A stretch of 63,823 nucleotides of DNA, the filler included, from Collodictyon triciliatum (lineage: Eukaryota): assembly GCA_043381765.1 (NCBI GenBank). It is 4 parts of 4 records of this genome, joined end to end, with 100 filler letters (N's around TTAATTAATTAA, not from the genome) between each part and the next. Parts side by side here need not be neighbours in the genome. Positions count along the whole stretch, not along the records: positions 33,555 to 58,909 come from JBHJMP010000581.1; 3 more parts are not named here. One strand, 5' to 3'. The notes beneath the pieces were generated by a model. It worked only from the letters and a program-made list of their open reading frames with translations, was not told where the DNA came from and made no database searches. Positions within the stretch are counted from its first letter, which is position 1; each line of letters opens with the position of its first letter. A program made the translations under genes and the position numbers. This document shows, piece after piece, positions 16,845 through 52,560 of this stretch.

Positions 16845-19800
16845 ATGGGACTTTGGCATGTGTCTGTGCTCTCGTGCTTGCTGATAGCTGCCTGTTGTGT
16901 TGCTGGGAATATAAACAACCAACTCGCCCACAGGTGGGAATAGCAACCATACTGTGAGCAACTTTCAGGAACTCATTTTTACTAATTTATGTATTTGGCG
17001 CTCACCCGCAAGCGAGGCAGAACTATAAAAAGCTTTATTATATTTTTCTTACCTTTAAACCGTTATCGTTTCGTTGTCATCAATCGAATGAAAATGTAGT
17101 GAGGATCCACTCTGTGCGTTTTCCGAGCAAGAAATCAAACAGCTGGACCGCGAGGCTGCTATTAAGATTCTGCTTGACATTCGATCATATTTACCCTGTG
17201 CATACTCGTCTCGAAAAAAGACAGATAATGCAAGGTTAATCACCAAAGAGTCAGAGAGAGAAATACTCTGCGATATCCATGACAAATTCACCAATCGAAA
17301 TTCACCTTGGGTAAGAGATGGTTGGTGTAAGAATGTGAATGATGATTATTGCTCTTGGTATGGTGTAGAATGCAATGGTGCTGGGGTATGTGACTTCAGA
17401 TTGATTAGTGCCACAAGCCTTGAAACAACTTCTCCTTTCTTTTCATACTATTTTTCACTCTCTTCGGAATAATGGCCATCTATATGCATTTTTATACTGT
17501 AAATACAATTTCTTAACCTCTTAATATCAATATGAAAAAGTCTGTTGTGTCAATAACATTACGTGGAAACAATCTTGCTGGGGATGGAGAAAATCTGAGT
17601 TTATTCACCAAATTACCAAATATAGAGAAAGTTGTACTGCCAATAAACAACATATATGGTGATGATAGAGCTAGTCGAAAATTATTCAACCATGATTAAT
17701 CTTTGTTTATTTTTTTCTCAATCTTGCACACTAGTAATCCATGGATTTTACTTCTCATCCCAATCTGAAAATAGGTGCCATACCGGAAATGAGCCATCCT
17801 CTTTTACAACACGTTGATTTAGGAGATAATTGTCTCACATGTGCGTCATGTTTCCGATTTTTCTTTTAGTTAATTACACATAATTGCATCAACACAGCAA
17901 ATCTTTTATTTTTATTACATCTTATTTAGCAACTGTACCTATTCTCAATATGACAAGATTGGAAAATTTGATTTTGACGAACAACTACCTTACTGGTAAT
18001 TCTTATTCACATTTTCACTGCACTATGCATATGCTACTCAATTTTTAAATATAAGAATATTTTTCATGAATTCAGTATTCCTCTTTTCAAAATACCAGGG
18101 TATAATTTGGCCCTCGATACATGAAACTTGTAATGAGTTATCACGAAAATATACGCGATATTAAAGGTTTTACATAATGATTATCAATTCATAAAGGCAC
18201 CATAGACCACTTGCTCAGCATGGATATCATTGAACTAAATCTATCAGTCAATAGATTCTACGGTATTTTGTGATATATATAATTCATTTCAAGATTCTAT
18301 GATTTATACGAGGGGTAATGATATTTTGTATCTGCTGGTTGATGGTATGGCTACTACTAATTGTAAATCCAACAGGAAATATACCATATTTTCCATCGAA
18401 GCTGGAAAACTTAAACCTGCTGGATAATTATTTCAATGGTTTTAACATAACTGTTCATATCATATCATATCATATCATATCATATCATATCATATCATAT
18501 CATATCATATCATATCATATCATATCATATCATATCATATCATATCATATCATATCATATCATATCATATCATATNNNNNNNNNNNNNNNNNNNNNNNNN
18601 NNNNNNNNNNNNNNNNNNNNNNNNNNNNNNNNNNNNNNNNNNNNNNNNNNNNNNNNNNNNNNNNNNNNNNNNNNNATCATATCATATCATATCATATCAT
18701 ATCATATCATATCATATCATATCATATCATATCATATCATATCATATCATATCATATCATATCATATCATATCGCACACTTTTCCCGTTCATTTATATCT
18801 TCATTATTACGACCGTTTTGAATGAAGAAATATAGTTTCATAAGCTCAACTGGTACTAATTTCGGATAATGCAGGCACCGTCCCAAATTACCTGCCAGCT
18901 ACCATTAAGATTCTTCATATGTCTTATAACAATTTCATCGCAAGTGTGTGAAGGACATTATAAAATAATAACAGGGCATATAATTCCATTTATACTCTTA
19001 TATTTGTATATAACAACTGACAGATTAGCATGGACTGTTGCTGTACAATAGGTAATTTTATTTCTCACTGGAATTTGAATTATATTACGAAACTGGGATT
19101 ATCGAGCACTTATCTCAAAGGTATGCGGCATCCAAAACACTATATAAATGCCTTGTATTCAGTTATGTGCGTAAGGTGCGTTGTAAATGAAATTTTCACA
19201 TTAATATTTTGTTCATAAAGGAAAGATACCACCGTTTAAAGGTGCTGAGACAGTAGACATACTACTTGCTTTCAATCAATTAGAAGGTTGTCTAATACAT
19301 TTCATTGATAATAAACAATATTATGAGCATACTTTGAAAATAAATTTGAAAATACAGGAGAGATAAAAATGGACCAGATGAGTAACCTTGTAACACTGGA
19401 TTTGCAACACAATAACTTTACCGGGTCTCTGCCAGCAATTGAAAACCTTTCCATCATCACATACAGAGTAAACAAGAATGAATTCAACGGTACATTACCT
19501 TCTTTCCTATATTCGATTCAAAAAGCGGCGCATTAACCTTATAAAACATCGCATTCTGATCATTCCATAATCAAATAGTATTAATGATTACTTTATTACG
19601 ATGAACAGGAACCATACCAAGAATAAATGCACCCGAGCTAAGATATTTCGATGTATCACACAATCAACTTAGCGGTTAGTTGCATGTTTAATTGCGTCTT
19701 TCTATAAGTGGTATGAACAGTAGTAATGCAACGCACTCATATCAAATCCCAACCAAAAGGTAATCTGCCTGATCTATACCTACCGTCTTTGATTAGCCTT

Positions 19801-31789: not shown

Positions 31790-33091
31790 ANNNNNNNNNN
31801 NNNNNNNNNNNNNNNNNNNNNNNNNNNNNNNNNNNNNNNNNNNNNNNNNNNNNNNNNNNNNNNNNNNNNNNNNNNNNNNNNNNNNNNNNNTTTTGTTATC
31901 TTTTTGTTATCTTTTTGTTATCTTTTTGTTATCTTTTTGTTATCTTTTTGTTATCTTTTTGTTATCTTTTTGTTATCTTTTTGTTATCTTTTTGATTGGT
32001 ACAAATTATGTGAACTATTATTTCTTACCTTTATCCGATTCAAGTTTTGTCCACTTCTTTTTAAAATAACATATATGGTGCAGGCTTGGAGGATATTCTG
32101 ATGGAGAAAATGGAACACCGAAGAACGACCTGGCTCGGCAATCCATGGACGCTCTCGTGACCCCGTTCATAGTCAGAAATTTGACAAGACCTCCCTCGAC
32201 TAATCTTTTAAAACATTTCAACACGAATGCAGAAAATCCTTATTTTATCTGGAACAACGAAATGAGGGCTGAATTAAAGGGGTATCTAGAAAGGTTGAAA
32301 TTCTCTTCAAAAAAAATTTTTTTTTATTCTTACTTTCAATTTTGTGCAGGATGGTGGAGATGTTGGCACTCTTCAAAAAATATAATATAATTCATCTCGT
32401 ATTAATCAAAAAAAAATGCCAGTAAGATATAATGTGAAGGCCAAATTAGCTGTCCTTTAATTATCAATATGTTACTTAATTATTTTGATGTGACACACTC
32501 AGTCGCATAGACCTTGCATACCGAAAAGGAAAGCATGAGCCCGAGAATGCCCCAAACTTTACTTATACATGCATCAAGAAGGAGCTTCGTGTTGGTGCCT
32601 TGTATATTCGCATCTACAACGAACAGCCAAAATTCCCTCTTGAAGAGCCCCAGGAAAGATTGGTGAAAAAAAATATATAGAAACAAACATCCCAGATAAA
32701 ATAATACTCGTTCAATAACGCCTATATGCGTTAGCTTCTCCCACAATCAGGCTTTACATATGGATCTTTTTATCATGGCAGCATTTACAAAAAAAAAATA
32801 AAAAAAAATCATAAATAATAATAAATTTGTTGGATTACTCCTCGATTTTAGAGAGAAATGTTGGCCTACTTGGAAGAAAAGACAAAGGGCATTAATCTGC
32901 GCTCTCCGCCAAACTCCAAGGAATGGCAAAGGAACTGTAGACGTATCTCGATGGTTCTGGAGTCTGTGGTTAATCTACTTACGAATCATTATGGAACGGA
33001 GATTGAGTTTTCCAATTCAAGCTCTATAAAGCTTATGGGCTCGCTTCTGGATATTCCCACCTTTGACGAAATACCTGCACGCGCAATGGAG
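23283..33091 (+). CDS. DNAJC13: RME-8 / DnaJ homolog subfamily C member 13, more than 25 exons, 3'-truncated at the scaffold end
   Basis: KITPRH...TEKRVVERDPGTYSI; IWN motifs (DLIWNYYTREEL, YFIWNNEMRAEL); GYF-like EWYY..GPYS...W (28283-28459); PITYPELEEELFC.RYYLRHLC; J-domain YYKMAAKYHPDKNPDGR; PFRYAGY; YDYTLEESGVE. Confidence 0.95.
29369..29525. repeat. Intronic (T5-8 GTG)n repeat
   Basis: Read directly. Other RME-8 introns carry similar tracts (27700-27836, 30525-30630, 31710-31992, 33145-33454). Confidence 0.95.
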
Positions 33092-36108: not shown

Positions 36109-36605
36109 TTTTTTTTTATCTTTTTTTTTTTATTTTTTTTATTTATTCTTTTATGAAATCGCAAAGGTTTGCTGTGGAGTATGTAAATGATGCATGAAAA
36201 AAAATAAAATCAGAGCGACAGGGAGAGCGATAGGAGATCACCAACGCGGAAAAGAAATCAGTGATAGCGAGTTGGTTAGATGGGCAACCCAACTGGTTGA
36301 TTAGTTGCTTAGGGTAGCAGGGGTTGGATATGCTGTGGGAGATATCGCATGACACATTCCCACATCTCTCTTCGCTTGCGGTCAGAGTAGCGAAAAAATA
36401 AATATCAGCAGGCTGTTCAGGAAGCTGCATTGCACGAGGCTCTCATGCCTGTATACATTGATTTCTCGTTCGGGTGAATCATTAGAGCGAGAGAATGCAC
36501 GCACACTCCATAGGGACCACAGCATATGTCCCCTTGTGACTGTCCAGAGTATTCTAGAGTCGTGGGTCATTTGGTATTGTGGGCCAAACAGGATGTCAGA
36601 CGCGC
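36109..36605 (-). mobile_element. 5'-truncated LINE 3' end with AATAAA and A-rich tail
   Basis: 36250-36605 matches the reverse complement of about 49640-50000 (SDILFGPQYQMTHDSRILWTVTRGHMLW). A-rich tail at 36109-36146; its assignment to the element is inferred. Confidence 0.8.
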
Positions 36606-39083: not shown

Positions 39084-42000
39084 ATGGGTCGAAGGACGTC
39101 TAAGACTCTTCCAAGAAGCTACTCAACAACTTTCCGAAGCAGGAAGTCATACTTTGAGAACGAAGGATCGCCATTTACCAATAGCTATCGTACAGAAAGG
39201 GTGATGCGTTCAAGCAGTACAGTAGAGAGTTTTGATTGCATCACAGATATCTCCTTTCTTGCCCATGATGGTGCTTTGGGCGGCTTTGAGGTTGCAAACA
39301 ACGATGATGTATTGACCCCCGGCATTTTTCCGAGGTAAACAGTGGGCTTCTACTATTTTTTTTTTAAAAAAAAAAGAGAAACAAATAAATGCCCTAATGT
39401 TTGTTTTGTGCCATACATCTGAAAATGTTGTCGGGTCATCTCCGTTTGCAATAGATTTAAGAACGAAAAAGACGAGACTCGGTATTTGAACGAGCTTAGA
39501 CTTATCCATCTGAGTCCCTTGAAATATCACGTCTCTATTTTGGTCCTGTTCGTAACATTTTTGATTTTCATGGCCATTCGAGAAGACGAAATATCCACGT
39601 ATGATTAACAGAAAAGTTACCCACATCATATACGGAAGAACACTTTTTTCAACCCGAAAATAATTTAGTTCGAAAAAGGGTGAAACGAAATACTAAAGCT
39701 TCAATGAAATAGAACCGATTATATATTTTATGCATGGGTCGCACTAGCATCACTGTCTGCTACGTTCCTCTCTTTTGCTATATTCTTCAAGGAAAAATTG
39801 TACTTTGATGATATTGTTGTATCAGAGGACGAATATTGTGTTACACAATACTGCAATTAGAAATATACTATTTCCTTATACAAACCGACTTTAGGTTGCT
39901 TCGGTATACATACTACCAAGCTTTGGTTATGTGTATCCCTGTTGTTCTCGTTGCTGTATGGAGGGCTGAACGTTCGCGACAATTCACTCCCATTTTTTTG
40001 ATAAACACCCTTTATGTAAGTCGTTTGCAATGATTTAACTAATGATTTCTCCATTTAGCCCCAATAAATTATTTTCTGTGGATAACGAAACTAAACCAGC
40101 ATTAATTCAATTAGCTATCTTGCTTTGAAATTAAGACATCCAACAAATTTTTTGTTGGATCATCTACCATATCCATAACGGCGTATGTAATAACCGCGGC
40201 TATATACGACCGGTCTCTTGACTTTCGGCTGTTTCTAGCTCCAATCGTACTTATCGCCCTCCATATGTCCATCGCGCATCACAACTTAGAGATTTGGCAA
40301 AGACGGTACTAAATAACATCTTTTTCATTTCATACACTTTCATTTTTTTTGATTATCTGAAAAATTTATAATAATTGCAATGGTTTATAAAAAAATGATG
40401 TGCATATTTGTTCTCGAATTACAGCCACTTTTCCGTGAAAAACAAACTGGTATCAAGAAAAAATGTTTTGGAGGGGAAAAACAAGCGACTTCTTGCATTG
40501 TTGCATTCTATTTACCCCCCGTGAGAATTCCTCTGTTTTAAAATTGTTTATCTTCATTCCAATATGTCATTTTGCAATTTAGCTGAGATACTTGATGCCT
40601 GAACTTTACTTTGTAATTTTATTCTTTGCTTTATTTGAAGAGATAATGTGGTGTTACACTCGTTCAATAGACTCATCATACGAGACGTCTGTGAGAATCC
40701 CCACAAGGCAATATCTACGTATGCCTGTCCACATGCAGTGGTTATGTCTGTGAGGATACACGAATTCTCTAAAATATTCAGCGAGATGGACCGAGAAACT
40801 AGGATAGATTTCTTTGACAACATGTTCAGGTACTTTTTTTCGGAGTGTTTTATTATGTTTTCAAAAAAATGAATAATTTTCTGCAAGATTTAGTCTCAAA
40901 TGTAATAAATATCAATCATATAGGAAAATTTACAGAATATCTCAATCGTAAGTATAAAAATATTGCTGATATGATTATTTTATTTTTATAAATAATTGGC
41001 CGATGTAATTGGTAGTTCCCCATTGTCAATAAATAATAAAGAATTCATTCATTCACGAAATCAAAATTTTAGATACGGCCTTCATAGGGTGAGAACGTCA
41101 GGTGACTATCTCAATTCAATTGTGTATAAATATACCGTTCTCCAACATCACTCGAAGATTGACTTTCCTTGTCTCCTAATTGACTTTATTTTCTTCTGTA
41201 TTTGAATGACGTTTACAGGCGGACAATTCTTGGTAATTTTTTTTCAACAGTATACGCGATGGGGTTTTGCTCTATATTTGATTACATTTTGGAGACTCTT
41301 TATATTTTATTTTATTTTTACATTCATCCCGGAAAAAATATTAAATTCTAGGCCGTCGGCTCTCTGACCAACAGCGGTTTGGAGTATGTTCATGACGCAC
41401 TACATGCAGCAATTCGAATAAAAGATTTAGTTATACACCTAAATCAACCTAAGGTTAATGGTGATCTATTTTCAATAGAATAACACCAGTAATGAAGTCT
41501 AAGCAAAAAAGAAATCTGTGAGAAAATCTAGGTATCCAAATGCTGTTATGTATAACGTAGATCAAGGTATCAATTGGAATGCACCGGGGTCCCGTTTATG
41601 CTGGGGCTGTGAACTCGGAGAAGGGCTCTTTTGAAATATTTGGAGATTGTAAGCGACTTTATGAGAAACGAACCTTGTTTGGATGTACTTCTTAATGCAG
41701 TTGCATATCATAACCAAATCTATATGAACTCAATACGAAGCTCTTTCTGTGGCTGAGGAAATTTTAAGATGTGCAAGTCATTATGAAATACTGGTATCTG
41801 ATGAGATTTACTCTACTAGTAAGGTATGAATGTTATTCGTTCATATCATATTTATTGTGTCAATTAATTTCTTTGATTTGCAGAGTAATTATATATTAAT
41901 CGGAAAATGCTGCCATAGACGGAGTTCGATTTTACTGAAGCACCATCTTTCTCCTTTACAAGTGGAAAAGTGTGGATACTGTGTAAGATGAACAGTGGCC

Positions 42001-44773
42001 GAGGGCAAACTTTTAAAGATGGGCACCGAGTCAGTGACGAAGGAAATCTATTCAAAGCCGGGGTGTTTTAATTTCCATCGCATATATTAACCTCGTTGTT
42101 AACTTTGATGATAGCAAGTATATGATGTTATTTTTTCCTATAGATATGCTTCTTTAAAATTATTTATTACTTACATCTCATTTATCCAGGATTTGAGTGT
42201 GAGTTTATCAAAATACTGCACAATCAATAAGCTATTTGGCTTCATCCTTCGTCTCAGATTTAAGGATGACGCTTTAGAGACAGACTACCGAAAATACAAT
42301 TCAACTGTCGTGCAAGACTCATTGTATAGGTTGGTCAATTAATTTAAGTTTGCGTGGTTCCATATAATCAGAAATATTTTATGCAATTCATTTAATCTAC
42401 TTATAGTGCCGGACTGTACTCTGTGGTGGGTGTATCCGTCCTATTTTCTGTCTACGATATCACAATTTTTGGGGTATCATTGAATGCTCAGGACATGCTC
42501 GACCAACCCACAGTCTTTATAAGATTTGGTGTCTTACTACCAATCGTCACCTTTCACCTTCTATCACACCTCCTTGGTTCTGCCAAAGATACTCGATATC
42601 GATTTCACGGAAACAATGTCTACCTATCGTCCATTCTTGTTTACGGGGTGTGGATTGTGGTTAACACATCACTTCTAAAGGAGCAGCCACAAAATCTTGC
42701 AGACAAGCCATATGAACATTTTTTACTGGAGCTTTATGTTTGGGCGATAATTTTCTTTTCCAATGGATGGACAAATAAACATGGTCTATACACAACCGGG
42801 GTTATGTGGATAGCATATGCTAATTTCACGCTATATCATCTTGAAGATATTGGAATGTATGAGTTGCTTCCTTTTTTTTTTTATCGCGCACAAACATAAA
42901 TTTTATCTTTCCAATTTTTTCAGATGACCCCGAAGGGTCACGCACAAACATAAATTAATTAATTTTTTTTAGTCATATGTGTATTCCTAAAAAAAACTTT
43001 TTATTTATATTTTTAGAATGGACAATTTAAGTTTATACCTGAATGGGATTATATTCAATGCTCTTCCCTTATGGAACTTGATATGGGGCGAAACTGAAAG
43101 GGAACTTCTACGAAGAAAAGAATTTTTACTATCTGTCCAAGAATCCGAGGTAAAAGAATATTTGTTTGAATTATCTTATGAAATTTTCTATTTCCATTTA
43201 GTTCTTTTGGTTACATATATATATATCGGTTTATGGCGAATTAGTATGGTCAATCCCCGAATAACTGTTTTCCTTTACGCCAGGCAATACAAACATTGCA
43301 GAAACAGCAAAAGTTTGTCGATTCTATCCTTTGCACTGTAGTGCCTCCTTACTTGCTTTCCTCAGTTCGTGATGTGCAGGCAAACACAAAAGAAGAATTT
43401 CCAAATGCCTCTTTGATAGTCATAGACATCGTCGGCTCTCGACAAATATTCAGATTTCTTTCAGCACGACAAATATTTGCACTTTTATCGGGTCAGAGAT
43501 TCATCCTTCTATATTTTTTTTTGAAAAATAAAGTGAATATGTTCCTCCTCAACCCCATTCTCATTTTCTGTGCTTTTTTATATTCATACTTAGAGATATT
43601 TCAGTGCATCGAGGCACTGTGTAAAACATTTGGAGTTGTTCCCATCAAGACCGTGGAAGACTGCTTCATAGTAAATAAAATTCGCGTTTGAATAACTTCA
43701 CTACCCTATCTTAGGTTCTGACTGTTGTTTCTCTTTTAATGTTGCGGCTGAAAATAAGTCTCCTTTATTTAATCAACCATTCACAGGCTATGGTTCCAAA
43801 TAGCTCGGAAACTAGGAAAGGGTTGATGTGCATATGCCAACTTTCACGGCAGGTAAGTCGAAGAAGATTACGCAGATAGACTCATCATTTGAATATAAAA
43901 CTCTGCCTGCTGCAGACATTTCTCTGACATTTTTTATGAACAGATTCACCAAACAGTGAGCACGAAAAAGTTTGAGTTTTGGACAGAAATGGTCGAGGTG
44001 AAAATCGGTATATCATGCGGCGATGTCATAGGATATGTTTCAGGTAGTTGTTTCAAGACTGCATCTTTATTTTGTTAAATCTTGCATTTAATTTGTTTTG
44101 CTTTTCTTTTTTATCCTCCTATTTTTATAATATGGTCATATTTTCCTTACGTAAGTAACCCTCTGCTCTTTTTTTTAGCCCCCACGTTTCCTTGCAAATA
44201 TCAGCGATTCCATGCATTTTTTTCTTATCAAAGACAATGACCTTTATTTTCAAATTTGATGCTTAGGGAAAGACTATCTTTCGTATGAAATATGGGGAGA
44301 TTGTGGTAAGCGCGTACTTTTTTAACCCGAATTCATGGCCAATCAAGGCTAGAAATACACGGTGTTTTTTTTTCTTTTTTCGATTCAAAGAATTGATGTA
44401 TTCCTAGTTAACGAAGCCTGGGAGCTCATACATGATACAGAAGCCGGACGTACACAGGTTTTTTCCCACTTTATTCGATTCAAATTCGGACGTACACAGA
44501 TTACTTGGATATGTACATCCAGCGAATCGAACATACCCATACTCGTCTGTGGTTAGCATACACTCTAGAAACAAAACTATTCACTCGGCAAAGGTCTCAC
44601 ATTCATGTGTCAAGCACCTGGAAAGAGACCACATTCTGCAAAAGGAGATGAGGCACGACCCAAGCGATCCAGACTGCCCCAGGACAAAGTACTATGTTGT
44701 TGAAAACCAAAGTGTGTGGGAGATGTACATCCAGTACATCGATTGGATGGAGCGCGAAGATTTATATGTGTAA
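39084..44773 (+). CDS. Membrane class III adenylyl/guanylyl cyclase-like protein, TM-C1-TM-C2 architecture, multi-exon
   Basis: C1: LLHSILPP, RVRTSGD, IGMHRGPVYAG...FEIFGD. C2: ILCTVVPP, ASLIVIDIVGS, IKTVEDCFI, VKIGISCGDVIG, YEIWGDCVNEA, GRTQ|VS. Two hydrophobic clusters (about 39700-40300 and 42400-43100). Confidence 0.85.
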
Positions 44774-45329
44774 CGCGTTGTGTCTATGGCATTCTATATT
44801 CAGCCGATCTTTCTAGTAAAAAAATACAGATTTTTATAAATAAATCAAGACAAAAATGAAAAGATATGCTCATCCTATGTCTTTGAGTACCTTCATATAA
44901 GAGTAAAACCATGTAATAAACATAAGAATCATTATAGCAATTATGAGGAATCGGGCGGGTGCGTTCATTGCCCAACATATCCCTTAATTTCCACATATGT
45001 GGGGAGTGACGTCATTTGCAAACACAGCCACGAATCACATCGCGAATAAGAAGCGAGCAGAAAAAAGGAGAGGAAAAGGAGAAGGTTTAAAGAAGGGCTG
45101 CTTGTGCGTTGAGGGTCACTATGGCCAACTGACTGGATACGGGAGTGAGAGGAGAGAGGAACCAATAGGAAGGAGAATCCTAGGGATTGCGGTGCCTCAG
45201 ACTTTCCAACGCAGAGAACCTCGCCATGAAGTTTATGCGTTGATTTTTATTTGCTCGAAATACTCTGCTATTGAACTAACTTCCTCGATCGGCCATTTGA
45301 ACTTGCTGGCTGGAGCAGCGCGAGGCATA

Positions 45330-47615
45330 ATGCTTAAGGTAAATGAAACACATTAGAGTACTTTCGCCTTATTTGAGTCGTTGAAAGCCAACCTTTTTTT
45401 TGTTTTTTGTTGTTGTTTTGTTGTTGTTGTTGTTGTTGTTTTTTGTTGTTGTTTTTTGTTGTTGTTTTTTGTTGTTATTGTGTTGTTGTGTTGTTATTGT
45501 GTTGTTGTTTTGTTGTTGTTATGTTGTTGTTATGTTTGTTTGTTTTTTTTTGTTGTTATTGTGTTGTTTTTTTGTTGTTATTGTGTTGTTATTGTGTTGT
45601 TATTGTGTTGTTGTTTTGATGTTGTTATATTGTTATTGTGTTGTTGTTGTGTTGTTATTGTGTTGTTATTGTGTTGTTGTTTTGTTGTTGTTTTGTTGTT
45701 GTTATGTTGTTGTTTTGTTGTTGTTTTGTTGTTGTTTTGTTGTTGTTATTGTGTTGTTATTGTGTTGTTATTGTGTTGTTATTGTGTTGTTATTGTGTTG
45801 TTATTGTGTTGTTTTTTTGTTGTTATTGTGTTGTTGTTTTGATGTTGTTATATTGTTATTGTGTTGTTGTTGTGTTGTTGTTTTGTTGTTGTTATGTTGT
45901 TATGTTGTTGTTATGTTTGTTTTTTTGTTGTTATTGTGTTGTTATTGTGTTGTTATTGTGTTGTTATTTTGTTTGTTTTTTGCTTGTTTTTTGTTTTTAA
46001 AACGGAACTACCTGCACGAATCATGCATACGCATTCACACACGACAATCACCCAAGAATAATAACAAGTGCCTAACCTCCTTCACAGAGTCTTGCTCCCA
46101 CAGCCTCAAAGGCCTTCCGCCAAGCCGCCCTTATTCGTGCGTCGTCCTTTCAGGTGCGAGTTGAGACGGACACCTTTGGACCTATCGATGTACCCAGCGA
46201 AAAGTATTGGGGAGCACAAACTCAGCGGTAAGACTTTGACACTTGCAGAACTTTCCTCTCGCGCTTGCTTATGGTTTAGATCAGCTCTGTATCTACGCAA
46301 GTATTGCTCAACTATTCGCACCTTTTCTCTCCATGCCCGTATGAACCAGCTCTCTCCAAAACTTTGAGATCAACCAAGAGCGTGACAAGATGCCTTACGA
46401 AGTGATCAAGGTATTTACCGCTGCTACAGCGGAAACATTATTTATATACTTTTCTCTTTATTCACATATTATTAATTCTAATACACCACCGTATTCTCCA
46501 AGTGTATTTACGCAGCTCTGCTGGAGTCCGGTATGCGATCATGTATTGTGAAACAAAACATACCACTAATATTGCCAACCTTGTCTTTAGGGTATGGCGA
46601 TCCTCAAGAAGGCTGCAGCCGAAGTCAACGTCCAGTTCGGACTTGACCCAAAGGTTTCTGCTGCCATCCAGAAGGCTGCCGACGAGGTTATCCTTTACTT
46701 CATATTTCCTCATTCATCCGCCAAGAAGAAGCGGGAAGAAAGAAAGAAAGAAAAGGGCGATAAGTATCTCATAGCCTCTCCTCAAACCCTCTTTAACCCC
46801 TCTCGTTACCCTCTCTCCCTCTGGGTGGATGGAAACCCATCTACACACGCCTCTGGAGAGACATCTGAGCAAACCCTTCTTGAAATCCACTCCAGGTCAT
46901 CAGCGGGAAGCTGCAGGACCACTTCCCCTTGGTCATCTGGCAGACGGGAAGCGGAACGCAGACCAACATGAACGTGAACGAAGTCCTCTCGAACCGCGCC
47001 ATCGAGCTGCTGGGCGGGCAGGTGGGGAGCAAGAAGCCAGTCCATCCGAACGACCACGTCAACATGAGCCAGTCCTCCAACGACACGTTCCCGACCGCCA
47101 TGCACATTGCCGCGGCCTTGGAGGTGAAGCAGCGCCTGATTCCGTCGCTGAGCACGCTGCGGGACGGGCTTGCCGAGAAGGCGCAGGCCTTTGCAAACAT
47201 CCTCAAGATTGGGCGCACACACACGCAGGACGCCACGCCGATGCGCCTGGGCGACGAGTTTGGGGCGTATGCGTACCAGCTGACTCTGGGGCTGGACCGC
47301 GTGAATGCGGCACTTCCACGCATCTATGCACTGGCTGCTGGGGGCACGGCTGTCGGGACCGGGCTCAACACATACGAGGGCTTTGCCGAGGGGGTCGCGT
47401 CGTCTGTGGCGCGGCAGACGGGGCTGCCTTTCGTCACGGCGCCAAACAAGTTCGAGGCTCTTGCGGCACACGATGCACTGGTGGAGCTGCACGGCGCCCT
47501 CAACACCGTGGCCGTCTCGCTCATGAAGATAGCCAACGACATCCGCCTTCTGGGCTCGGGCCCCCGCTGCGGCCTGGGCGAGCTGCTTCTGCCCGAGAAT
47601 GAGCCCGGCTCCAGC

Positions 47616-47654
<39 letters not shown>

Positions 47655-48286
47655 ATCACCATGGTCTGCGCCCAGGTCATGGGCAACCAGGTGGCTGTCT
47701 CTGTGGGCGGAAGCAACGGCCACTTTGAGCTCAACGTCTTCAAGCCCGTCATTATCCACAACGTCCTCCACTCCACCCGCCTCCTTGCCGACGCCTCGCT
47801 CTCCTTCCACAAGCACTGCATACTCGGTCTGCAGGCCAACGAGAAGCGCATCGCCAGTCTTCTCAACGAGTCTCTCATGCTTGTCACCTCCCTCAACCCG
47901 CACATTGGCTACGACAACTCTGCCAAGGCTGCAAAGAAGGCTCACAAGGAAGGCACCACCCTCAAGGAGGCTACAGTCTCCCTTGGACTCTTGACCCGTA
48001 TGCACTATCTCTTTTCTCTATTTTTCTCTATTTTTCTCTATTTTTCTCTATTTTTCTCTATTTTTCTCTATTTTTCTCTATTTTTCTCTATTTTTCTCTA
48101 TTTTTCTCTATTTTTTGGTTTGCTGTTTTAGACTTTATATTATAACTGGGAGCAAGCAGCTGCCCTTTTCTTTTCTTCTTCTCTTGTATTGACGAGGTAT
48201 AATGATGAATAGCCGACCAATTCGATAAACTTGTCCGCCCTGAAAACATGCTTGGCCCGGAGAAGTACCAGCCGAAGAAGAAATAA
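45330..48286 (+). CDS. FH: Class II fumarate hydratase, mitochondrial precursor
   Basis: [21 protein letters not shown] presequence; [61 protein letters not shown] signature; ends [17 protein letters not shown]. Confidence 0.97.
45400..45995. repeat. Degenerate (GTT/GTTATTGTGTT)n intronic microsatellite
   Basis: Read directly; fumarase intron 1. Confidence 0.95.
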
Positions 48287-48494
48287 GCCCAGCTCGCCTT
48301 CTTTCTCTATTCTCTGCCCAGAAAAACAATAAAAGAACCACACACATGTCCGGCAAGTATGCAGTCGTCTCAGCAAGAGACCCCACAGAGTCAAATGGGT
48401 TTTATCGCTGCTTGAAGACACACGCACTCCTAAAAGAGTATTCCACAGGCCGCTTTTTCACAGCGTGCTTCTACCGATTATCGCGTTCTCTTAT

Positions 48495-48541
48495 TTCACC
48501 ATCCTGCACAAAATTGAAAGGAAGAATAAAAAGAAAAAAAA
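48495..48541 (+). mobile_element. 47-bp 5'-truncated poly(A) retroposon with 15-bp TSD
   Basis: ATCGCGTTCTCTTAT at 48480-48494 and 48542-48556. The insert ends AATAAA + A-tail and is identical to 51759-51795. Confidence 0.85.
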
Positions 48542-48684
48542 ATCGCGTTCTCTTATCGTTGCCACAACACCGAATTGCTGTGCTTACACTAGTATTACAG
48601 ATTTCTCGGTATAAGGTTCGTATGATTACAATTTATGCTCATAAAATAACTCGCAACTTCATCACTACGAATAATCAACATTAT

Positions 48685-50050
48685 AAAATCAAGACGCTCT
48701 CTGAGCCACCTACGGAGGGAGGGCTGGGACTCATAACGCCTGGTATTACACAGGCATCGCTCACGACGAGATGGTGGACAGATATGCTTACCCATCCGAA
48801 AGATTTTGGCAGCGTGGAATGTGGCACCTCATCCATCGCATATGTCCGAACTTCAAGGCACAGCTCTGTGACAGCAGAATCCAATCACCACCGCCAAACA
48901 CTCCCGAGCCGCTACTAGCGCGGTGGAAGGTTCTGTATGAAAACTGTGAAATGTGCGAGTCTATCCAACTACATGCTGTTACAGGCCAACTTTGCTGGGA
49001 TAGAGCAAAAGGCTTCTGTATCATCAAGTCGAGAGAAGCAACAGCTCATTCATCCTGCAACAAGTCGCTTTCCAAAAGGATGGGAGCTTCGCACCGTCGA
49101 AAAATGCATCGATATTTCACTCCTCCGATGTAACCCCAACTACAGTCATCCTGAACAACAAAGTAGAATGGTGCTCATATCGTCCCATCTCATACGGAGC
49201 GCCATCGCTATTTTTCTTTCGCCTGAAGAACCAAACGCGGTCCATTACGCCTGATTCTCCGCTATTCTCGATGGCCATGACGTACTCCAAGCTGTTTCGA
49301 TATGAAATCATCAGCCCGAATCCCTACAACCTGAGAAAATGGGTTGTTGGGCCGAAACTACAGGCATTATAGACCCGCCGATAGTCAAAAGCTGGAAGCA
49401 AACCCGTATACCTCAGTTACTCCCGAAGCACCGAGCCCTACTTCTCAATATCTCCAACAGAGAGCTATGGATAGGTGCGCGCGTAGTCCATGCAGCAACG
49501 ACCTCCCCAGAATGCACCATGTGCCATAATGGAGATGAATCTATCGAATACACATTTGTGAAGTGCTCTCTTGCTCAAAAAGTGACAGAATGCACCCACA
49601 AGATGCTCTCTGAGCTTGATTATGCTCCCAACCGACTCAGCGTGTCTGACATCCTGTTTGGCCCACAATACCAAATGACCCACGACTCTAGAATACTCTG
49701 GACAGTCACAAGGGGACATATGCTGTGGGCCTTATGGAGTGCGCGTGCATTCTCTCGCTCTAATGATTCATCCGAACGAGAAATCAATGTAACAAGGCTT
49801 GAAAGCCTCGTTCAATCCAGCTTCCTGAACAGCCTGCTGAAACACGCCCGCATTCTTCGCTACTCTGACCGCAAGCGAAGAAAGATGAGGGAATGAGTCG
49901 TGCGATATCTCCCACAGCATATCCAACCCCTTCTACCCACGCAGCCAATCAATCAGTTGGGTCGCCCACCTGACCAACTCGCTATCACTGACTTCTTTCC
50001 AGTGCCAGCATCACCACACCAGTGTATCCTACTCACGTTTGCCCTCTAAT
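48685..50050 (+). mobile_element. L1/Tx1-like LINE ORF2 C-terminal remnant (end of RT region + zf-RVT-like motif), frameshifted
   Basis: LSEPPTEGGLGL...TRW (post-RT motif), CTMCHNGDESIEYTFVKC, LWALWSAR. Further copies at 1-452, 36250-36605 and 52269-52423. Confidence 0.82.
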
Positions 50051-50440
50051 ATGCGCAGTTAATTCGTTTTGTCCTTGTCAGAATTAAACTTCCTGATATA
50101 CTGTTGAATCTTTGTGCTAAATCCGGTACTGGCAATAGCAACAGCAATAGAATAAGTAAATGTAATGAAAAAGCACAAGTAGTGATAATAAAGATAATAT
50201 GTGCACATAGTTTGTTTGAATCGATGATAAATTGATAGTGTTACGTAAATTTATGCATAATTTCCAGAAATAAATAATTATACGGACCTGCCAAACTAGT
50301 TTGCACCAATGCTCCTGTGTGCCGTAAACGTGAATATAAAAGTTTTTTCGTTTGCTCTGAATCACGACGACAATACCTATCACCGCACAAACAAACATCA
50401 TGTAGCACAAGATCCTAACAACAGACCCACAATAAAGAAG

Positions 50441-51685
50441 ATGAAGGACGCAGAGATTCGCCTGGAGCTGTCAAACCCCGGCTTGATATACTATGCGGGG
50501 CAAGATGTCCAAGGGAATATTCATGTGGTTGTCCGCAAGACCATCAAACCCCGAAAGATCAAAGTTGAGTTTCGAGGAAAGATATTCGTGAGCTTCTCAA
50601 GCGGTGGTGGCGAGGACAGTACAACTTACACTGCTATCAAGAGGCTGTTCTCAGAGACTGTTGTAGTGTGGGAGCCCAACAGAAATGGTGCCTCCGACTC
50701 GCTTCCTCCTGCAGAGTACCGCTTCCCTTTTAATTTCAAGCTGAGTCCCTCCAACGAGTATCCTCCCCCGTTCACTGGTTCCTGTGGCTACATCAAGTAC
50801 AAACTCGAGGCAAACATAGACCTGGCGTGGAAGATTGACCCGAAAGCTGAGGTAGACCTAAACGTGATCGGATTATACAACGCGAACGAACCAAGATACC
50901 ATCATCCAGTCGAAGGCCAAGGTATGAAAATCCTGGGCTGTCTGTGTTGCTCCTCGCCTCCCATCACTTGCAAGGTTGTCAACCAAGCTGGGAGCGCCCT
51001 TCCCGGAGAAACCATCAAACCTGTGATAACCATAAACAATCCCTCCGGCAGCTCCATCAGGTCTGTCAAATTACTTCTGCGGCAACATGTAGAATATCGA
51101 GCTGAGGGAGCTCTCCAGGTATCCCTCAACGACTTCAATCTCCATGAATATCCTGGTGTTCTCTCGGGGAGCCAGAACGCCACCATGACCAAGGATGTTG
51201 TGTTGCCAGCCGTGCTAACCCCGTCATTCTCATCTGACATCCTAACGATTTCATATAAAGTCACAGCTGTTGTCGAAACCCCAGGAATGTCTCGAAACTT
51301 TGCTGTAGGAGCCCCGTTATTCATCGGCAATGTGCGAACGGTCCAAAACTCAGATTTCGGCGCGCAAAACACATACCCCCAACCACTATATCATCCTACC
51401 CCTCAGGTTTACGCTCAGCAGCCGCAACAGCCCTTTAACCCAGTCCCTCAGGTTTACGCTCAGCAACCGCAACAGCCCTTTAACCCAGTCCATCAGGTTT
51501 ACGCTCAGCAACCGCAACAGCCCTTTAACCCAGCCCATCATGTTTACGCTCAGCAACCGCAACAACCCTTTAATCCCAATCAACCATACTACCAACATCC
51601 AACCGGCCCTGTTACACCGATGTATCAGCCTTATTACCCGCAATATCCTCAAGGCCTCCAGCCACAGCAAGAGCCACCTAAATAA
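50441..51685 (+). CDS. Intronless alpha-arrestin (arrestin N + C domains) with Pro/Gln/Tyr-rich tail
   Basis: YYAGQDVQGNI, YRFPFNFKL...PPPFTGSCGYIKYKLEANID, GCLCC, LTPSF....ISYKV. The ORF is open from 50309; MKDAEIR at 50441 is the likelier start. Confidence 0.92.
   Translation: MKDAEIRLELSNPGLIYYAGQDVQGNIHVVVRKTIKPRKIKVEFRGKIFVSFSSGGGEDSTTYTAIKRLFSETVVVWEPNRNGASDSLPPAEYRFPFNFKLSPSNEYPPPFTGSCGYIKYKLEANIDLAWKIDPKAEVDLNVIGLYNANEPRYHHPVEGQGMKILGCLCCSSPPITCKVVNQAGSALPGETIKPVITINNPSGSSIRSVKLLLRQHVEYRAEGALQVSLNDFNLHEYPGVLSGSQNATMTKDVVLPAVLTPSFSSDILTISYKVTAVVETPGMSRNFAVGAPLFIGNVRTVQNSDFGAQNTYPQPLYHPTPQVYAQQPQQPFNPVPQVYAQQPQQPFNPVHQVYAQQPQQPFNPAHHVYAQQPQQPFNPNQPYYQHPTGPVTPMYQPYYPQYPQGLQPQQEPPK
51400..51577 (+). 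repeat. Four 45-bp coding tandem repeats (xQVYAQQPQQPFNPx)
   Basis: Read directly in the arrestin tail. Confidence 0.95.
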
Positions 51686-51701
51686 GAAACCTTGTCCTCT
51701 C

Positions 51702-51797
51702 GCCCGGCCACCAAGTAGCGCCCATGCAAACGATGGCTAGCGAACCAAAGCCAACATCTTCACCATCCTGCACAAAATTGAAAGGAAGAATAAAAAA
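51702..51797 (+). mobile_element. 96-bp poly(A) retroposon with 15-bp TSD (same family as 48495-48541)
   Basis: AAACCTTGTCCTCTC at 51687-51701 versus AAACCGTGTCCTCTC at 51798-51812; AATAAA + A-tail. Confidence 0.85.
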
Positions 51798-52029
51798 AAA
51801 CCGTGTCCTCTCAGAACACCGCGATTCTTTTGTGTTTATGGAGCCCATGCACAATGAAACATTGATGAGATACTTTTTTATCTTTTTTTTTTTTGCATCA
51901 TTGTCTCAATCTTTCGATACATAAAACCTCATTCACGCAATGGTGCTTTTCATCTTCTTGTTCGCGTCCCACAGTTTATTCTAGATGCGGAGGCGATTTT
52001 CTCGACTTTCTTTCTCCTAAAATGATATC

Positions 52030-52560
52030 AAAAAGAAACAAATTAGAAAATATCTCTTGGGTAGGACAAACACCCGCGGCCGTCTTGAGTGCCAGCCGAA
52101 GAATCTCGCTGGCTGTTTTGAGCGAAGGGGCATTGCACAAATGTGTACTCGATGGATCCATCATCTTTGTTGCAAAGTGTGGATTGTTGTGAAACTTCAC
52201 CGCTCTCTTGTGCTTAACATCACCAATAGGAAGTTATGGATAGGCACACGTGCGGCATAAGCTGGTGATTTTTTTTTCCTTTATTCGATTCAAAGTGCAA
52301 CAAGGTTATGCCATACAAAGCGGCGAGATAGGTGCGCATGGTAGAGAGCAAACGCGACTAAGAGAAGACACTACTGTGGAGATGCTAGCACTGGAAAGAA
52401 ATCAGTGATAGCGAGCTGGTCAAGAGAGCGGTGATTTGGAAGGACTTGCGGGGTTCATGCTTGTCTTCAGCTCGCGGTGAGCGGGGCGTGTGTGGTGCCT
52501 AGTGTTTCGATTTTTTGTAGGGCGTCGATGGTGGCAGGATTTTATATCCCGAGGTTTTGG
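52030..52560 (-). mobile_element. Rearranged, diverged LINE remnant containing a LINE 3' terminus with AATAAA-poly(A) (52269-52423)
   Basis: 52340-52423 matches the reverse complement of 49970-50048. HRSLVLNITNRKLWIG lies on + (52198-52250) while the zf-like segment (52100-52185) lies on -. Confidence 0.72.

What the first reader, a model, noticed from the sequence alone, without database searches (positions are those of the whole stretch)
44445..44502. Tiny antisense LINE-tail insertion that duplicates a 5' splice site in the cyclase gene
Seen: CGGACGTACACAG|GTT (44445-44460) is repeated as CGGACGTACACAG|ATT (44487-44502). Between them lies TTTTCCCACTTTATTCGATTCAAATT, whose reverse complement (TTTGAATCGAATAAAG...A-tail) matches the LINE 3' terminus at 52269-52295. 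The duplicated site spans the exon end and donor, and the downstream copy has GT changed to AT. Inference: a roughly 26-bp TPRT product landed on the donor and the redundant donor was then inactivated. The geometry (TSD containing AG|GT) is the one that can create new introns.
Basis: partly seen in the sequence, partly recalled or inferred. Interest (0 to 1): 0.72.

Follow-up and report, generated by a model that had tools for sequence, protein, structure and literature searches.

The report
LINE tail insertion duplicating a splice donor
A 26-29 base scrap of a LINE retrotransposon's tail landed exactly on an exon-intron boundary of a cyclase-like gene and copied the splice donor; the gene still splices correctly from the upstream copy, so this is a tidy but ordinary retrotransposition scar.

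Summary
Observation confirmed and interpretation largely supported. CGGACGTACACAG occurs exactly twice in the window (44445-57, 44487-99). The two copies flank 29 bases whose minus strand reads TTTGAATCGAATAAAG, then TGGG, then six A.

That 16-mer is the true 3' terminus of a LINE family. It ends a 162-bp LINE 3' fragment at 52269-52430(-). It also ends an independent metagenome copy (L004) that is 92.7% identical over 562 bp to the zf-RVT ORF and 3'UTR at 49498-50056.

cDNA-like contigs from two public runs join 44457 to 44594 (GT..AG, 136-nt intron), so the upstream donor copy is the one used. The spliced ORF stays open across 8 joints to TAA at 44771. The downstream copy reads AT, not GT. 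An original 16-bp duplication that included GTT, followed by G>A, is the most economical history, but no empty site could be found.

No new intron was made: an existing intron grew from about 94 to 136 nt.

The window holds at least three more tiny tail insertions with exact 12-16 bp duplications, so abortive target-primed reverse transcription looks common in this genome.

Corrections: the ORF beside 52295 is an ankyrin gene, not a LINE body, and the "cyclase" label has only weak Pfam support. This is a new member of a known kind, of modest interest.

The parts
44408..44457 (+). 50-nt coding exon ending ...ACACAG; its last 13 bases form the upstream copy of the target-site duplication
   Evidence: Joints 44304>44407 (cut +1) and 44455>44592 (cut +2) in contigs of X1 and X2; reading frame
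44445..44460 (+). Upstream duplication copy: 13 exact bases plus GTT. The GT at 44458-44459 is the donor in use
44458..44486 (-). Micro-insertion of 29 bp, or 26 bp if GTT belongs to the duplication. The minus strand reads two unmatched A, then 16 bases identical to the LINE 3' terminus, then TGGG, then a short A run
   Evidence: 16/16 to 52279-52294; same terminus in L004
44487..44502 (+). Downstream duplication copy: 13 exact bases plus ATT. This is the dead duplicate of the donor, with A where the donor G would be at 44500
44458..44593 (+). 136-nt GT..AG intron. It consists of the 29-bp insert, the 13-bp duplicate and the 94 nt that are the presumed original intron (44500-44593)
   Evidence: joint present in both X1 and X2, 4 ambiguous letters AGGT
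44594..44773 (+). Last coding exon, ending in the stop codon TAA at 44771-44773; poly(A) addition near 44862
   Evidence: (loose end of 17 A behind 44862)
52269..52430 (-). 5'-truncated LINE 3' fragment of about 162 bp, ending in the motif plus 9 A
   Evidence: (90.7% over 162 bp to L004)
49306..50056 (+). LINE ORF2 C-terminus (zf-RVT) and 3'UTR of the same family; its own tail is replaced or rearranged after 50056
   Evidence: Pfam zf-RVT 30.4 bits; L004 92.7% over 562 bp; distant full-length relatives carry endonuclease, reverse transcriptase and zf-RVT domains
44365..44390 (-). Second tail copy of the same family (1 mismatch in the 15-mer, 9-T run) in the preceding intron, 17 nt before its acceptor; no duplication recognisable
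   Evidence: also present in the unspliced X2 contig with one T fewer (table 4)

Best explanation
An L1-like LINE started target-primed reverse transcription on the + strand at the first bases of an existing intron of a cyclase-like gene. The inferred target was ...ACACAG|GTT/ACTTGG.

Reverse transcription copied only the last 16 bases of the LINE RNA plus a short A tail and then aborted. Repair of the staggered second nick duplicated about 16 bp of target: the last 13 exon bases plus GTT.

The locus therefore briefly carried two donors 42 bp apart. Using the upstream donor (CAG|GTTTTT, partly rebuilt from the antisense A-tail) gives the original mRNA. Using the downstream donor would add 42 in-frame bases, or 14 residues, inside the conserved domain.

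Today the downstream copy reads CAG|ATT and cannot serve as a donor. The intron is 136 nt instead of about 94.

Shown: the insert, the duplication, the family terminus, and the exon junction.

Inferred: that GTT was part of the duplication, that G>A came after insertion, and that selection against the +42 isoform favoured it.
For: - Exact 13-bp repeat, unique in the window, flanking 29 bp.
- 16 of 16 identity of the insert to the terminus at 52279-52294. The same terminus is followed by an A run in an independent copy, L004, which matches the window LINE at 92.7% over 562 bp.
- The motif plus A run is otherwise only a chance match: 9 of 10 metagenome loci and 10 of 10 prokaryote-genome loci match no more than 37 bases.
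- The family is an endonuclease-type LINE. There is a zf-RVT ORF in the window. 3 of the 7 relatives scanned have Exo_endo_phos plus RVT_1. One of them matches human L1 ORF2p at E 3e-57.
- The junction 44457^44594 is seen in contigs of two runs. 9 of 9 joints are GT..AG, and the spliced model across 8 of them reads open to the stop codon.
- Other donors in the gene include GTTGGT, so a GTT-type donor is usable here.
- Other micro-insertions with exact 12-16 bp duplications show the process recurs: 48495-48541, 32315-32368 and 42903-42940. A scan found 5 candidates against a mean of 0.23 in 30 shuffles.
- The G at 44458 is hard to explain as part of an A-tail. It is needed as the donor G, which argues that it was in the target.
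Against: - No empty site was seen.
- No laid contig covers 44458-44593. It is therefore unknown whether the organisms behind X1 and X2 (about 99.5% identical in exons) carry the insert. Donor use in the window's own strain is deduced from the only available GT.
- X1 and X2 are labelled 'RNA?' as a guess.
- The exact duplication is 13 bp. The extension to 16 bp needs one mismatch, placed exactly where the story needs it.
- The A tail is short (6 A) and separated from the motif by TGGG, unlike the other two tails.
- Two bases at the 5' junction (TT at 44485-86) match neither the LINE nor the target.
- A second tail copy sits only 68 bp upstream, so local templated repair is not excluded.
Confidence: 0.72

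Rival explanations
1. The duplication is only the 13 exonic bases. The G at 44458 was added at insertion (untemplated, or a misincorporation at the end of the tail) and, together with the T run, created the donor de novo. On this reading the downstream ATT is ancestral and was never a donor.
For: Only 13 bases are identical. Untemplated bases at LINE junctions are known: an 8-bp filler is described in PMC3219598 (passage seen). The 5' junction here also carries 2 unmatched bases.
Against: Before insertion the gene would have had no GT at the exon end that two runs show joined to 44594. Read-through from ATT runs into TAG after 18 codons. ATTACT with an AG acceptor fits no known intron class (my own knowledge, not tested). 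An exon end that is conserved in frame argues the donor pre-existed.
Confidence: 0.1
2. This is not retrotransposition. A double-strand break at the donor was repaired with filler DNA copied from the nearby tail copy at 44365-44390, or from another genomic tail, and staggered ends produced the 13-bp duplication.
For: A related tail lies 68 bp upstream in the same orientation.
Against: The insert matches the family terminus 16 of 16 but matches the nearby copy only 15 of 16. The architecture of A-tail plus 13-16 bp duplication recurs with a second, unrelated tail family at 48495, 32315 and 51702, with different truncation points. That is the signature of target-primed reverse transcription rather than local copying.
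Confidence: 0.06
3. The insertion history is as in the best explanation, but G>A at 44500 is neutral drift or a fill-in error rather than selected inactivation of a harmful second donor.
For: There is a single substitution and no population data. The duplicate donor may have been outcompeted anyway.
Against: It is the only difference among the 32 duplicated bases and the 16 motif bases. It hits one of the two positions that abolish a donor, roughly 2 in 48 by chance (my post hoc arithmetic). The +42 isoform would insert 14 residues in the conserved block.
Confidence: 0.3

Closest known systems
Severely 5'-truncated L1-mediated insertions in human genes (for example the poly(T)-only insert in NF1 exon 25; Wimmer et al. 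2011, PMC3219598; passages read)
   Same: An endonuclease-type LINE, an antisense A-tail seen as a T run in the gene, a flanking target-site duplication, almost no element body, and occasional filler bases at the 5' junction.
   Different: Here 16 element bases survive, so the source family can be named. The hit is on a donor and is tolerated rather than pathogenic. The host appears to be a protist: the best named fumarase relative is Acanthamoeba at 80% identity, which is a weak lead.
Introners and other transposon-born introns with splice sites co-opted from the target-site duplication (PMC11282704 and PMC12130899, passages read; PMC9860276, search listing only)
   Same: A duplication containing splice-site bases sits at an exon-intron junction. 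The stretch from GT at 44458 to AG at 44498-99 has the geometry that would excise the insert plus one duplication copy exactly.
   Different: The intron pre-existed: 94 of its 136 nt are unrelated to the element. The acceptor in use is the old one at 44593. The element is an aborted LINE tail, not a multi-copy intron-generating family.
Intron gains flanked by short direct repeats attributed to break repair
   Same: Direct repeats containing AG|GT at intron ends; this intron has AGGT at both ends (both = 4).
   Different: Four bases is what the splice consensus alone gives. Here the 13-bp repeat lies inside one end of the intron, not at both ends.

Membership tests
5'-truncated non-LTR (L1-like LINE) insertion made by target-primed reverse transcription | Sequence identity to the 3' terminus of a LINE family | tested here: met
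   16 of 16 to 52279-52294; the same terminus in L004
5'-truncated non-LTR (L1-like LINE) insertion made by target-primed reverse transcription | A-rich tail next to the 3' duplication copy | tested here: met
   Six A on the minus strand (44459-44464), separated from the motif by TGGG; shorter and less clean than the 9-A tail at 52269
5'-truncated non-LTR (L1-like LINE) insertion made by target-primed reverse transcription | Flanking target-site duplication | tested here: met
   13 bp exact and unique in the window; 15 of 16 if extended
5'-truncated non-LTR (L1-like LINE) insertion made by target-primed reverse transcription | Source family encodes an endonuclease and a reverse transcriptase | tested here: inconclusive
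   The window and L004 hold only the zf-RVT C-terminus. Distant relatives at 26-30% identity have Exo_endo_phos, RVT_1 and zf-RVT domains and match L1 ORF2p. No full-length family member was seen.
5'-truncated non-LTR (L1-like LINE) insertion made by target-primed reverse transcription | Empty site in a relative or allele | not testable with these tools
   No genome is held; no contig covers the intron; flank pattern scans returned 0 hits
Transposon-born intron (introner-like) | The whole intron derives from the element and the intron is absent before insertion | tested here: not met
   Only 29 of 136 nt are element-derived. The joint uses the acceptor at 44593, 94 nt beyond the duplication.
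Transposon-born intron (introner-like) | A splice site supplied by the duplication or the element | tested here: met
   The donor GT at 44458-59 lies at the boundary of the upstream duplication copy and the T run, and it is the one used
Class III nucleotidyl cyclase (host gene) | Guanylate_cyc catalytic domain above the Pfam threshold | tested here: inconclusive
   1 of 16 exon or ORF pieces scanned hit PF00211, at E 0.0012 and 18.9 bits against a cut-off of 21.9. That exon aligns to the spliced C-terminus at 11 of 30 identities. The spliced protein could not be submitted to Pfam.

The most novel reading that the evidence does not exclude
In this genome, aborted target-primed reverse transcription is frequent. 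It leaves 25-100 bp tails of at least two LINE families, with 12-16 bp duplications. The window holds four exact cases in 64 kb, three of them in or at introns of one gene.

Because these duplications are longer than a whole splice-site consensus, they could be a retroelement route to splice-site duplication, intron lengthening or sliding. When the target is an exonic AG|GT, they could produce ready-made short introns.

The 42-bp GT...AG module at 44458-44499, which would excise precisely and in frame, would be a caught-in-the-act example of that geometry.
Probability: 0.12. Interest if true: 0.7.

Novelty: new member of a known kind. Interest (0 to 1): 0.36.

Why it matters
This is a clean natural example of a retrotransposition scar sitting exactly on a splice donor without harming the gene. 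The duplication preserved a working donor, and the spare one is dead. It shows how long LINE target-site duplications can copy whole splice signals.

It also flags a genome in which very short LINE-tail insertions seem common enough to test whether they shape intron boundaries. On its own it does not change what is known about LINE biology or intron origin.

Tried and rejected
- Whole genome: none is held.
- Earlier notes of this scan: nothing by place, sequence or words.
- No RNA holder is listed as such for the stretch. X1 and X2 are 'RNA?' guesses that I read as cDNA. Their reasons: 9 GT..AG joints, a 17-A loose end, and adaptor-like loose ends that I recognise from memory as template-switch oligo.
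- X3 and X4 (metagenome runs) give no cover at 44413-44674, so they say nothing about an empty site.
- LINE body next to 52295: rejected, because that ORF is ankyrin repeats.
- A flanking duplication for the 52269 fragment: no exact k-mer of 8 or more was found.
- A flanking duplication for the tail at 44365: none seen by eye.
- Full-length gene product in the protein database: 0 hits for the largest exon.
- LINE ORF against solved structures directly: 0 hits.
- 'Longer' homologues by word search: only 1, of 345 aa.
- Pfam on further cyclase exons: nothing above noise.
- Exon-flank pattern for an empty site: 0 hits in genome contigs and 0 in viral contigs.
- Tail motif in viral contigs: 0 hits. 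In prokaryote genomes: 10 chance hits, none extending beyond 29 bases.
- A count of all 13-mer repeat pairs was swamped by tandem repeats. It was replaced by the tail-aware scan.
- The idea that the 42-nt GT..AG module is itself spliced: not seen in either contig.

Full report
**What is in the sequence.**
At 44445-44457 the + strand reads CGGACGTACACAG followed by GTT. At 44487-44499 the same 13 bases recur, followed by ATT. Allowing 2 mismatches on both strands, these are the only two occurrences in the 63,823-base window (expected 0.33; 5 of 100 shuffles gave 2). The 29 bases between them are GTTTTTTCCCACTTTATTCGATTCAAATT. On the minus strand that reads two unmatched A, then TTTGAATCGAATAAAG, then TGGG, six A and a C.

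**Is the motif a LINE terminus?**
The 15-mer TTTATTCGATTCAAA is exact only at 44470 and 52280. It has 1 mismatch at 44375 and 19508. The remaining 8 of 12 hits at up to 3 mismatches are at chance level (expected 8.5).

At 52269 the motif is preceded on the + strand by nine T. On the minus strand it is therefore an AATAAA-containing end followed by poly(A). The 98 bases further in (52333-52430) are 80.6% identical, in inverted orientation, to 49963-50057. That stretch is the 3'UTR behind an ORF (49306-49893, + strand) that passes Pfam's threshold for zf-RVT, the zinc-binding tail of LINE reverse transcriptases (30.4 bits against 27.5).

A profile-free search of 1.84 billion proteins gave 15 relatives of that ORF at E up to 0.001. 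I scanned 6 of them plus the one word-search hit. Three (1226-1275 aa) carry Exo_endo_phos plus RVT_1, with the match at their C-termini. One of these matches human L1 ORF2p at E 3.4e-57.

A scan of metagenome contigs for the motif plus an A run returned 10 loci.
- Nine share only the motif (at most 37 bases).
- The tenth, L004, is 92.7% identical to 49498-50056 over 562 bp and 90.7% identical to 52269-52430. It ends ...CACTTTGAATCGAATAAAGG followed by A's.

So 2 of 2 family copies that keep their tail end in this motif. The same pattern in 596 Gb of prokaryote genomes gave 10 hits, none extending beyond 29 bases. This shows what chance looks like.

But the piece at 52269 is only about 162 bp, and the 1034-aa ORF beside it is an ankyrin-repeat gene. 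More fragments of the family lie at 1-209 and 36251-36605.

**Is the donor used?**
No genome is held, so I used public runs. Two small runs (X1, X2; labelled 'RNA?' as a guess) hold 22-27% of the sampled words of 42300-45300.

Laid on 41400-45300, their contigs show 9 joints, and 9 of 9 are GT..AG. They carry adaptor-like loose ends and a 17-A loose end behind 44862. I read them as cDNA. The adaptor identity is recalled, not tested.

Both runs join 44455>44592 with the cut 2 places to the right. That is an intron at 44458-44593 (136 nt), with four ambiguous letters AGGT.

Joining the RNA-supported exons by coordinates gives one open frame across the 8 joints in the model, ending at TAA 44771-44773. 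The junction reads ...EAGRTQ|VSHSCVKHLERD.... By contrast, read-through of the intron hits TAG after the 14 inserted codons plus 18 more.

The exon before it (44267-44305) and this one continue a block that aligns to an upstream exon (41561-41692) at 11 of 30 identities. That upstream exon is the only piece with a Pfam Guanylate_cyc hit, and it is sub-threshold (E 0.0012). 'Cyclase-like with two homologous domains' is as far as the tools go. My reading of the junction as falling in a conserved cyclase motif is from memory.

Caveats:
- No contig covers 44458-44593.
- X1 and X2 come from organisms coded A and B and differ from the window at about 0.5% of exon bases.
- They therefore prove the exon junction, not that those organisms carry the insert. 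In the window's DNA the only GT that yields this junction is 44458.

**How it most likely happened.**
The minus-strand element implies first-strand nicking and priming on the + strand. The C that ends the 'A-tail' (G44458 on the + strand) is not expected in a tail, but it is exactly the donor G that the gene needs. The economical reading is that the target was ...ACACAG|GTT/ACTTGG and that about 16 bp were duplicated. The downstream copy later changed G>A at 44500.

This leaves 15 of 16 identity. The single difference falls on one of the two bases that abolish a donor. Among the 32 duplicated and 16 motif positions this is the only change, roughly a 2-in-48 coincidence by my post hoc arithmetic.

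Using the downstream donor would have added 42 in-frame bases (VFSHFIRFKFGRTQ) inside the conserved block. Selection against that isoform is plausible but unproven.

Other donors of the gene are GTTGGT, GTATGA, GTAAAA, GTCAGA, GTAAAT, GTAAGT, GTAGTT and GTAAGC. GTT-type donors therefore work here. The net effect is an intron lengthened from about 94 to 136 nt, with positions +4 to +6 of the donor rewritten by the antisense tail.

**Rivals.**
- A 13-bp duplication with a donor created de novo would require a gene without a GT at a conserved exon end before insertion. I give this 0.1.
- Filler DNA copied from the tail 68 bp upstream is disfavoured. The insert matches the family terminus better than it matches that copy (16/16 against 15/16), and the same architecture recurs with another family. 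I give this 0.06.
- Neutral rather than selected G>A remains open (0.3). It is a variant of the main story.

**The wider pattern.**
A scan looked for exact direct repeats of 11 or more bases, 26-400 bases apart start to start, whose inner segment ends in an A run or begins with a T run. It found 5 candidates against a mean of 0.23 in 30 shuffles (7 of 30 shuffles gave 1, none gave more). One candidate (15739) is borderline. The other four are:
- the finding itself;
- 48495-48541: 47 bp, + strand, A8 tail, 15-bp duplication;
- 32315-32368: about 52 bp, minus strand, 12-bp duplication;
- 42903-42940: 38 bp, 16-bp duplication, in the cyclase intron 42857-43016.

The first two of these extra cases, plus a roughly 99-bp copy at 51702-51800 (12-bp duplication with 1 mismatch), share a second tail sequence. 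They start at three different points in it, which is the mark of 5' truncation.

A decayed family-1 tail with a decayed duplication sits at 19500-19522, and another without a recognisable duplication at 44365-44390. Both family-1 tails in the cyclase gene, and the T-rich insert at 42903, are antisense to the gene. This fits the known bias against sense poly(A) signals in introns (recalled, not tested).

**Comparison with what is known.**
Severely truncated L1-mediated inserts, down to a bare poly(T) stretch, are described in NF1 (PMC3219598; passages read). Splice sites co-opted from target-site duplications are described for introners (PMC11282704 and PMC12130899, passages read; PMC9860276 seen only as a search listing).

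My two literature searches did not surface a described case of a LINE tail duplicating a donor with the spare copy silenced. Two keyword searches are thin grounds for saying it is not in print.

The locus fails the defining test of a transposon-born intron, because only 29 of 136 nt are element-derived and the old acceptor is used. I file it as a new member of a known kind: a tolerated, extremely 5'-truncated LINE insertion.

**Organism.**
The fumarase ORF at 46884-48128 is 86% identical to an unnamed transcriptome protein and 80% identical to Acanthamoeba castellanii. An amoebozoan-like freshwater protist is therefore a lead only.

**Verdict.**
Interest is modest (0.36). The bolder reading, that frequent micro-insertions with long duplications remodel or create introns in this genome, is not excluded. 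I put it at about 0.12.

Noticed in passing
window 48480-48556: A 47-bp insert (48495-48541, + strand, ending in AATAAAAAG plus 8 A) flanked by an exact 15-bp duplication, ATCGCGTTCTCTTAT. It lies inside the degenerate LINE region. Its first 38 bases recur at 51759-51796 and 32321-32356, so it is the tail of a second retroelement family.
   Followed up: partly
window 32303-32380 and 51690-51812: Two more copies of the second tail family: about 52 bp on the minus strand with a 12-bp duplication (CTCTTCAAAAAA), and about 99 bp on the + strand with a 12-bp duplication carrying 1 mismatch. The three copies have three different 5' truncation points.
   Followed up: partly
window 42887-42956: A 38-bp insert with an exact 16-bp duplication (CGCACAAACATAAATT) in the cyclase intron 42857-43016. 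It holds a 16-base palindrome (TGACCC..GGGTCA on the minus strand) and a tail loosely like family 2. Its source is not identified.
   Followed up: partly
window 44365-44390: A family-1 tail (9 T, then the motif with T>A in the AATAAA) lying 17 nt before the acceptor of intron 44306-44407, where its T run could act as a polypyrimidine tract. The CAAAG at 44390 is not used as an acceptor in the contigs. The unspliced X2 contig has one T fewer.
   Followed up: partly
window 19495-19535: A decayed family-1 tail (TTTGAATCGAATATAGGAAAGAAGG on the minus strand) with a decayed duplication of about 15 bp (AAGGTTAATGCGCCG against AAGGTAATGTACCG).
   Followed up: no
window 46000-52300: A G+C-rich block (46-55% against 30-42% elsewhere). 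It holds an intron-poor fumarase ORF (46884-48128), LINE fragments (about 48700-50056, and a zf-RVT-like piece around 52213-52244) and a 461-aa arrestin ORF (50300-51682). The reason for the compositional jump is unexplained.
   Followed up: no
window 42507-42846: Freshwater metagenome run X3 holds two 151-base pieces, identical to this cyclase exon, at word depth 32, but almost nothing else of the stretch. This is odd for a low-abundance eukaryote.
   Followed up: no
window 45357-46000; N runs: A long GTT/TTG-rich microsatellite directly downstream of the cyclase gene. Assembly gaps come as 100-N runs and as paired 44-N runs 12 bases apart (23040, 33455, 58910).
   Followed up: no
window 44456-44459 and 44592-44595: The intron has AGGT at both ends (4 ambiguous letters at the joint). 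This is what the splice consensus alone would give and is not evidence of a duplication origin.
   Followed up: yes
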